Positions 36,454-36,576 of a stretch of 64,000 bases of DNA are shown here, one piece after another; position 1 is the first letter of the stretch, and every line of letters starts with the position of its first letter. The notes beneath the pieces were generated by a model that was not told the origin of the DNA, made no database searches, and saw nothing but the letters and a program-made list of their open reading frames with translations. This DNA comes from Eledone cirrhosa. Taxonomy: Eukaryota. The stretch covers positions 81,778,001 through 81,842,000 of the forward strand of contig OZ024746.1 of assembly GCA_964016885.1 (NCBI GenBank), read 5' to 3'. The position numbers and the translations under genes are program-made.

Positions 36454-36576
36454 ATAGGAAAAGGTATGACCCCGACGGCAGAGCTCAAGCCGTTTCGACG
36501 GCTATTTCTGGACTGAGTCCAGAAATAGCCATCGAAACGGCTTCAGCTCTGCCGTCGGGGTCATACTTTTTCCTAT
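36454..36576. repeat. Palindrome (61 bp arms) with the 3' half of a hammerhead on each strand
   Basis: Centre GACT-G-AGTC at 36515; right arm GAAA-CGGC-TTCAGCTCT-GCCG-TC-GGGGTCATAC; flanked by (TA)n. Confidence 0.9.

What the first reader, a model, noticed from the sequence alone, without database searches (positions are those of the whole stretch)
36454..36576. Palindrome whose axis lies where hammerhead stem II should be
Each strand reads long hairpin, GAAA, stem III (CGGC/GCCG), UC, then a putative stem I strand. The CUGANGA half is absent and replaced by the mirror image. Inference: cDNA copied into the stem II hairpin snapped back and primed second-strand synthesis, so the ribozyme fold itself dictates the fold-back point. 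This would explain how the window's palindromes arise.
Basis: partly seen in the sequence, partly recalled or inferred. Interest (0 to 1): 0.75.

Follow-up and report, generated by a model that had tools for sequence, protein, structure and literature searches.

The report
Penelope stub mirrored at RNA start
This 200-base mirror-image insert is one of thousands of stubs of a Penelope-like jumping gene; its axis does fall inside the element's predicted hammerhead ribozyme, but likely because the element's RNA starts there and two DNA copies ran off that end and were joined, not because the ribozyme hairpin folded the copy back.

Summary
The palindrome is real (61-bp arms, 3 mismatches). With a one-sided 77-bp tail it forms one insertion in (TA)n. 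It is a head-to-head stub of the 5' leader of a Hydra-type Penelope-like retrotransposon (at least 5,313 short palindromes and 12,239 tails genome-wide).

Non-palindromic parents exist and carry a complete predicted hammerhead, but with a TTGA(A/C)AA core and a different helix II than predicted. The axis lies in the 3' strand of helix II, at the A of TTAGTC.

Against stem II snap-back: joints are heterogeneous, either arm can be the longer, non-palindromic copies stop at the same base, exact stem II products number only 13, and a sibling family turns at TTAGTT outside stem II.

Best model: two cDNAs, primed from the two cut strands on one RNA, run off its capped start (initiator, TATA-like box at -31) and are joined. 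No RNA data were available to confirm the start. The architecture is known in print, and this scan found the same reading before on other DNA.

The parts
36349..36376 (.). (TA)n target repeat, left side
   Evidence: same flank type in most copies
36377..36453 (-). One-sided tail of about 77 bp; in ORF-bearing copies it continues into the 5' leader of the ORF; its far end is the inferred outer start site of reverse transcription
   Evidence: 12,239 exact matches to a 28-nt piece
36454..36514 (-). Tail-bearing arm: first 61 nt of the predicted transcript (3' strand of helix II, GAAA, stem III, cleavage triplet, stem I 3' strand); stops at the A of the parent's TTAGTC
36515..36515 (+). Single G absent from the parent (which has T); candidate cap-derived base of the right arm
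   Evidence: cap origin is inference, cf. PMC11702581 passage
36516..36576 (+). Tail-less arm: second copy of the same 61 nt, ending at TTCCTAT, the inferred inner start site of reverse transcription
36534..36560 (+). Hammerhead 3' half on the right arm: GAAA 36534-36537, stem III 36538-36541 with 36551-36554, predicted cut after 36556, stem I 3' strand 36557-36560
36568..36617 (.). Right junction: 20-nt duplication of the arm end plus TA, then (TA)n

Best explanation
The feature is a head-to-head stub of the 5' leader of a Hydra-type Penelope-like retrotransposon, likely built at this site by two reverse-transcription events on one RNA, one from each cut strand of the (TA)n target, which likely ran off the RNA's capped start and were joined end to end. 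One cDNA would start at the far end of the tail and the other 77 nt further in, which gives the one-sided tail. The RNA start is inferred to be the A of a TTAGTC initiator lying inside helix II of the hammerhead; that is why the axis falls in stem II. Shown: family, parent, hammerhead fold prediction, position and diversity of the joints, shared variants between arms. Inferred: transcription start, cap origin of the G, twin priming, mode of joining.
For: (1) Parent: leader, ORF with RT and C-terminal GIY-YIG motifs, Hydra diagnostics DKT, CxCx5C, CxxC/CxH. (2) In the first 100 exact tail matches on C1, 68 have a mapped second arm; the longer arm ends within -1..+3 of the A in 44 of 68, mode exactly at the A (18); only 8 of 67 have any arm more than 4 nt beyond it. 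(3) Joints are diverse: 1 of 50 listed places has the window's exact centre (by eye), so they are independent events, not one master. (4) Tail-less arm longer in 35, tail arm in 25, equal in 8; in 12 of 67 the tail arm stops at least 9 nt early while the tail-less arm goes on to the hot spot or past it, against 5 the other way. (5) The same stop occurs without any palindrome: 8 of 29 distinct (TA)n-joined loci start at AGT (by eye), and ORF-bearing L308 starts G-AGTCC. (6) TATTTAT lies at -31 and the ORF's ATG 231 nt downstream of the A (3 of 3 loci checked); TTAGT is a reported initiator in fly CAGE data (PMC10695386 passage); D. virilis Penelope starts inside its pLTR (PMC2377424 passages). 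(7) Siblings: family 2 has a different apical helix but 25 of 29 arms stop at the AG or G of TTAGTT; family 3 turns at or just inside TTAGTT, 5' of its core-like motif. (8) Arms share non-majority variants: 31 against 6.6 (max 16) in 1000 shuffles, 51 copies. (9) Arms of this family joined head-to-head to other Penelope-like families: L032, L033, L240. (10) A purified PLE protein nicks and extends both strands and starts RT at two sites that bound the tail (PMC11167929).
Against: No RNA evidence for the start site. The cap signal is weak: after arms ending at the A the next cDNA base is C 11, G 11, T 1 (C 6 of 10 where an untemplated insert exists). 5 of the 8 (TA)n-joined starts are ambiguous because TA is a microhomology with the parent. 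The TATA-like box is not seen at -31 in the single, degenerate family 2 parent (L193), and that parent may under-call a few arms. Family 5 joints are diffuse (10-39 nt upstream of the anchor in 15 of 29; 2 of 29 inside stem II), with no sharp initiator peak. Many asymmetric joints have 3-6-nt spacers and no microhomology, as a hairpin snap-back would. Shared variants fit fold-back as well as twin priming. The cross-family chimeras were met by chance and not counted in an unbiased way.
Confidence: 0.62

Rival explanations
1. One cDNA runs off the same RNA 5' end, snaps back on itself with little or no homology and is copied; later centre breaks and end joining scramble the joint.
For: Spacers of 3-6 nt in many asymmetric joints; arms share variants; self-annealing of cDNA ends is described for L1 (PMC11702581 passages).
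Against: The tail-less arm reaches +2 or beyond in 38 of 67 copies, more often than the tail arm (27 of 67), and both arms end within -1..+3 in 14 of 67, including the window copy with a 1-nt spacer. A tail cannot be copied from a tail-less first strand. Cross-family joints exist. It needs most copies to have been rearranged afterwards.
Confidence: 0.2
2. One reading: RT copies into helix II of a longer, ribozyme-complete RNA, stalls or snaps back through stem II pairing, and so the fold sets the axis.
For: The axis is in helix II in families 1 and 2. Exact stem II-guided products exist: 11 through the apical hairpin and 2 through the basal helix among 23 matches. The cDNA can form the helix II fold (-10.2 kcal/mol, z -1.9).
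Against: 13 against 5,313 (the two patterns differ in length, 30 and 22 fixed bases, so the ratio is rough). The stop is 3-4 bp into a weak AU-rich helix, after the stronger 9-bp helix was passed. Family 2 stops at the same sequence word in another structural context; families 3 and 5 turn mostly 5' of the core.
Confidence: 0.1
3. Self-priming on an antisense template, as proposed in print for the head-to-head palindromes of rotifer Penelope elements.
For: PMC3846280 passages infer self-priming from palindromes at inverted junctions.
Against: No pre-existing palindrome sits at the hot spot in the parent. The boundary has sense-strand initiator geometry. Arms that reach the boundary sometimes continue into the antisense of another sense RNA (L185, L175).
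Confidence: 0.06
4. A single non-autonomous master (MITE-like or retrozyme-like) with a fixed centre was amplified.
For: The best BLAST matches nearly all share the window's centre.
Against: That is ranking bias: only 1 of 50 position-ordered places has this centre; arms range from 60 bp to over 1.4 kb (L064, L080).
Confidence: 0.02

Closest known systems
Insertion architecture of EN+ Penelope-like elements: inverted 5'-truncated copy plus one-sided tail (PMC8557442 passages; Adineta vaga Pen2a, PMC3846280 passages)
   Same: Head-to-head inverted pLTR, tail on one end only, simple-repeat target, 5' truncation, partial tandems.
   Different: Here the whole insert is often only the two leader stubs; the tail is about 77 bp, not 30-40; joints pile up at one base.
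Hydra clade of C-terminal EN+ PLEs (Craig et al. 2021, PMC8557442 section 11)
   Same: DKT, CxCx5C linker, CxxC and CxH around the conserved E and N, (TA)n target, hammerhead, short element.
   Different: RWR instead of RWK; hammerhead with U3-A8 core and long helix II rather than canonical; no tree was built.
PLE hammerheads, incl. the U3-A8 core variant of Schistosoma Cercyon elements (Cervera and de la Pena 2014, PMC4209133, parts 1-2 of 4)
   Same: Type I topology in the pLTR, U3-A8 swap, G10.1-C11.1 pair, palindromic word in loop 3.
   Different: Helix III is 5 bp with a 9-nt loop (not minimal); helix II is about 55 nt with an apical hairpin; the inferred RNA start lies inside it.
Anolis Poseidon PLE in vitro (Frangieh et al. 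2024, PMC11167929, parts 1-2 of 4)
   Same: Two RT start sites bounding the tail, both strands nicked and extended, AT-rich target, product length set by the RNA 5' end.
   Different: Other clade; in the parts read the paper does not derive inverted stubs from twin priming and leaves the later steps open.
Animal non-LTR retrozymes (bioRxiv 10.64898/2026.07.22.740005, part 1 of 5 and passages)
   Same: Non-coding, hammerhead-related, PLE-derived.
   Different: Retrozymes are tandem repeats with whole ribozymes; this stub is inverted, has half a ribozyme per arm and is made anew at each site.

Membership tests
EN+ Penelope-like element | Single ORF with RT and GIY-YIG endonuclease in the parent | tested here: met
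   ORF pieces with YRDD and YIG motifs; GIY-YIG below Pfam cut-off (E 0.069); 471 homologues at E<=1e-10, of which P0120 has weak RVT_1 and GIY-YIG hits, 1 of 5 scanned
EN+ Penelope-like element | pLTR shared by the 3' end and the 5' leader, partial tandems | tested here: met
   Same sequence at the 3' end of L080 and L081 and upstream of the ORF start in L289, L295, L297, L304 and others
EN+ Penelope-like element | Inverted 5'-truncated copy and one-sided tail | tested here: met
EN+ Penelope-like element | Target site duplication | tested here: inconclusive
   Cannot be read inside (TA)n
Hydra clade | DKT instead of DKG; RWK motif | tested here: met
   SDKTGN present; RWR in place of RWK (L081 frame 3807-4337)
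Hydra clade | CxCx5C linker; CxxC and CxH around E and N; (TA)n target | tested here: met
Hydra clade | Placement in the RT tree with reference Hydra families | not tested
   No named reference sequences were on hand
Neptune clade | CX2-5CxxC linker and internal CCHH motif | tested here: not met
   The linker is CxCx5C, as described for Hydra; my first label Neptune was dropped
Type I hammerhead ribozyme (parent pLTR) | Three helices around the conserved core | tested here: met
   MFE gives stems I, II and III in L080, L053, L066 (z -2.3 to -2.6); TTGA(A/C)AA in 20 of 30 loci, variable at position 7 (by eye); helix II changes on both sides in the one family 2 parent
Type I hammerhead ribozyme (parent pLTR) | C3-G8 pair | tested here: not met
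   Replaced by U3-A8, a variant already reported
Type I hammerhead ribozyme (parent pLTR) | Self-cleavage | not testable with these tools
   Only 2 of 67 joints are compatible with the predicted cut; no assay
Type I hammerhead ribozyme (window copy) | 5' core and stem I 5' strand in place | tested here: not met
   Absent on both strands
Non-LTR retrozyme | Tandem units each with a whole hammerhead | tested here: not met
   Single inverted pair

The most novel reading that the evidence does not exclude
This Penelope family places its promoter inside its own ribozyme. Transcripts started at the pLTR initiator lack the catalytic 5' half and cannot cut themselves in cis, while read-through transcripts carry the whole ribozyme and would be cut 41 nt downstream of the start, which would separate the two RNA classes. 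Because RT starts internally at tail sites only 60 and 140 nt from the cap, most events yield two strong-stop cDNAs joined head to head, so the genome holds thousands of records of the element's RNA start and of a twin-primed insertion step.
Probability: 0.4. Interest if true: 0.62.

Novelty: new member of a known kind. Interest (0 to 1): 0.4.

Why it matters
How Penelope-like elements make their inverted ends and one-sided tails is stated as open in the papers read (PMC8557442, PMC11167929). These stubs give thousands of natural products with sharp, testable predictions: a capped start at one base, and two independently primed arms. They also show that such palindromes should be annotated as insertion products of an autonomous element, not as a MITE or a new ribozyme family. 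The palindrome itself is unlikely to matter to the host.

Tried and rejected
Rfam scan of the window: no match. CTGANGA search: 19 matches, all odd joints or chance, none a parent. Fixed-centre master element: rejected as ranking bias. Neptune label: dropped for Hydra. Splice acceptor at TTTAG as the boundary: rejected by inference, because arms usually keep the AG. Ribozyme cut as the main boundary: 2 of 67. RNA runs: no RNA holder listed, so no reads were laid; this is no evidence on expression. The Atlas look-up gave no result; the PDB sequence search had 0 hits. A tight pattern for the 8672 family gave only 5 places and was replaced by a better one. In alignment A1 the L295 row had wrong coordinates and is ignored. 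Rows dropped: 32 of 100 tail copies had no second arm mapped by the script (long copies, family 2, solo arms, very short arms; shown); L156 was mis-paired and is left out. Literature: 'Penelope + twin priming + inverted' gave 2 papers that look unrelated (listing only); searches showed no title or abstract start that maps palindrome centres to a PLE start site; only an open-access library was searched. Not seen: the supplements of PMC8557442 (S1, S2, S7) and Repbase/Dfam, which may already list this family and its ribozyme.

Full report
OBSERVATION. The window is AT- and microsatellite-rich DNA of a 3-Gb genome, which I take to be animal by inference. A DNA search gave 1,266 candidates, 40 scored. 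Their flanks show the unit to be (TA)n, a tail of about 77 bp on one side only, the palindrome, and (TA)n. In the window the tail is 36377-36453.

THE PARENT. A few of these loci showed how the arm continues, and that extended word has 2,622 matches. In 20 of 30 loci shown, the upstream sequence is CCCC, then TTGA(A/C)AA, then a long helix II (by eye). It folds as a three-way junction with stems I, II and III. The U3-A8 core is a variant already reported for Schistosoma PLEs (PMC4209133, parts 1-2 of 4 read). One parent of a sibling family changes both sides of helix II (L193). Long copies carry RT and C-terminal GIY-YIG pieces; L080 is a 3.9-kb head-to-head palindrome with the same one-sided tail. 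The motifs DKT, CxCx5C and CxxC/CxH and the (TA)n target match the Hydra clade (PMC8557442 section 11). I first called the element Neptune from memory; the lead to Hydra came from earlier scan notes and I then checked it. In ORF-bearing copies the arm and tail are the 5' leader, with the ATG 231 nt after the axis base.

WHERE THE AXES LIE. There are 5,313 exact short palindromes with centres in this region; only 1 of the 50 listed places has the window's centre. I took the first 100 of 12,239 exact tail matches. For 68 a second arm was mapped.

WHY NOT STEM II SNAP-BACK. (a) Pairing through natural stem II would leave its interior in the product; 13 such exact products exist among 23 matches, a fraction of a percent of the palindromes. 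(b) The tail-less arm is longer in 35 copies, the tail arm in 25, equal in 8. In 12 of 67 the tail arm stops at least 9 nt early while the other goes on to the hot spot or past it. A fold-back copy cannot hold sequence its template lacks, and the tail cannot be copied from a tail-less strand. (c) Solo copies joined to (TA)n start at the same base in 8 of 29 distinct loci, 5 of them ambiguous through TA microhomology; ORF-bearing L308 begins with G plus that base. (d) Family 2 (3,450 matches) has another apical helix, yet 25 of 29 arms stop at the AG or G of TTAGTT (one degenerate reference, so a few may run further). Family 3 (21,261 matches; the window's 8672 palindrome) turns at or up to 6 nt inside TTAGTT, at the 5' edge of its core-like motif: 11 of 29 arms, with 16 long and 2 slightly beyond. 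Family 5 (3,827 matches) turns mostly 5' of its core but diffusely; 2 of 29 arms end in stem II. (e) Arms of this family are joined head-to-head to other families in L032, L033 and L240.

HOW IT LIKELY WORKS. The common feature at the boundary is a TTAGTY word. TTAGT is an initiator in fly CAGE clusters and the TATA box sits near -31 (PMC10695386 passages); family 1 has TATTTAT at -31. D. virilis Penelope starts within its pLTR (PMC2377424 passages). Full-length L1 insertions carry an extra G from the cap (PMC11702581 passage); the window's central G fits, but the family-wide signal is weak (C 11, G 11, T 1; C 6 of 10 among untemplated inserts). A purified PLE protein nicks and extends both strands and starts RT at two internal sites that bound the tail (PMC11167929). 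I infer that both target strands prime a cDNA, one at each site, that both run to the cap, and that the two 3' ends are joined. The arms share non-majority variants well above shuffled pairs (31 against 6.6, max 16), so one RNA usually serves both; this result alone does not separate twin priming from fold-back. L185 and L175 show a cDNA ending at or near the hot spot and continuing on another RNA, as expected at an RNA end. Against the model: no RNA data, no TATA-like box in the one family 2 parent, diffuse family 5 joints, and many joints with hairpin-sized spacers.

CONSEQUENCE. If the start is right, promoter-born RNA lacks the catalytic 5' half of the ribozyme, and only read-through RNA could cut, after +41. 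Only 2 of 67 joints fit that cut, so cleavage in vivo is not shown.

KNOWN AND NEW. The inverted copy with a one-sided tail is the typical EN+ PLE architecture; its origin is called undefined (PMC8557442 passages) or ascribed to self-priming on antisense RNA (PMC3846280 passages). My searches found no paper with the twin run-off reading (listings only, open-access library). Many earlier AI notes of this scan, on this genome and others, reach the same reading. Mine was recorded before I saw them, and they are not independent support.

Noticed in passing
window 8672-8782: Palindrome of another very abundant (21,261 matches) Penelope-like family whose hammerhead-like core reads CAGAAGA (A at position 4); its axis is at the TTAGTT word just before the core.
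   Followed up: yes
window 54590-55160: Head-to-head insertion of a third family with a minimal hammerhead on each strand, arms of about 250 bp, a short piece of ORF end between them and a one-sided tail.
   Followed up: partly
window 7710-7811: Perfect 50-bp-arm palindrome next to (TA)n; related sequence occurs in other loci (L144, L241); family and parent not worked out.
   Followed up: no
window 16231-16281: 25-bp-arm palindrome with a short duplication at the right end, not in (TA)n; origin unknown.
   Followed up: no
window 28874-28995 and 7082-7135: Two solo minimal hammerheads (CTGAAGA and CTGATGA cores), each followed by (TA)n, probably ends of further Penelope-like families.
   Followed up: no
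L240:1380-1530: Tail-less arm of this family ending at the hot spot and joined to a family 3 palindrome: a cross-family chimera.
   Followed up: partly
L185 and L175, at the end of the tail arm: The cDNA reaches or nears the hot spot and continues on a second RNA (own ORF start, or family 3 tail); a possible route to partial tandems.
   Followed up: partly
L007, both flanks: The flanks on both sides of the insertion look like inverted copies of each other, suggesting a larger inverted duplication around the site.
   Followed up: no
L057, L070, L072 (centres near 867, 656, 1290): A further palindromic family with a TTGAAAA (U3-A8) minimal hammerhead about 40 nt downstream of its axis.
   Followed up: no
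window 24569-25043 and 40419-42217: Young tandem arrays (136-bp and 52-bp units, 96-98% identical) that seem built from pieces of common dispersed repeats.
   Followed up: no
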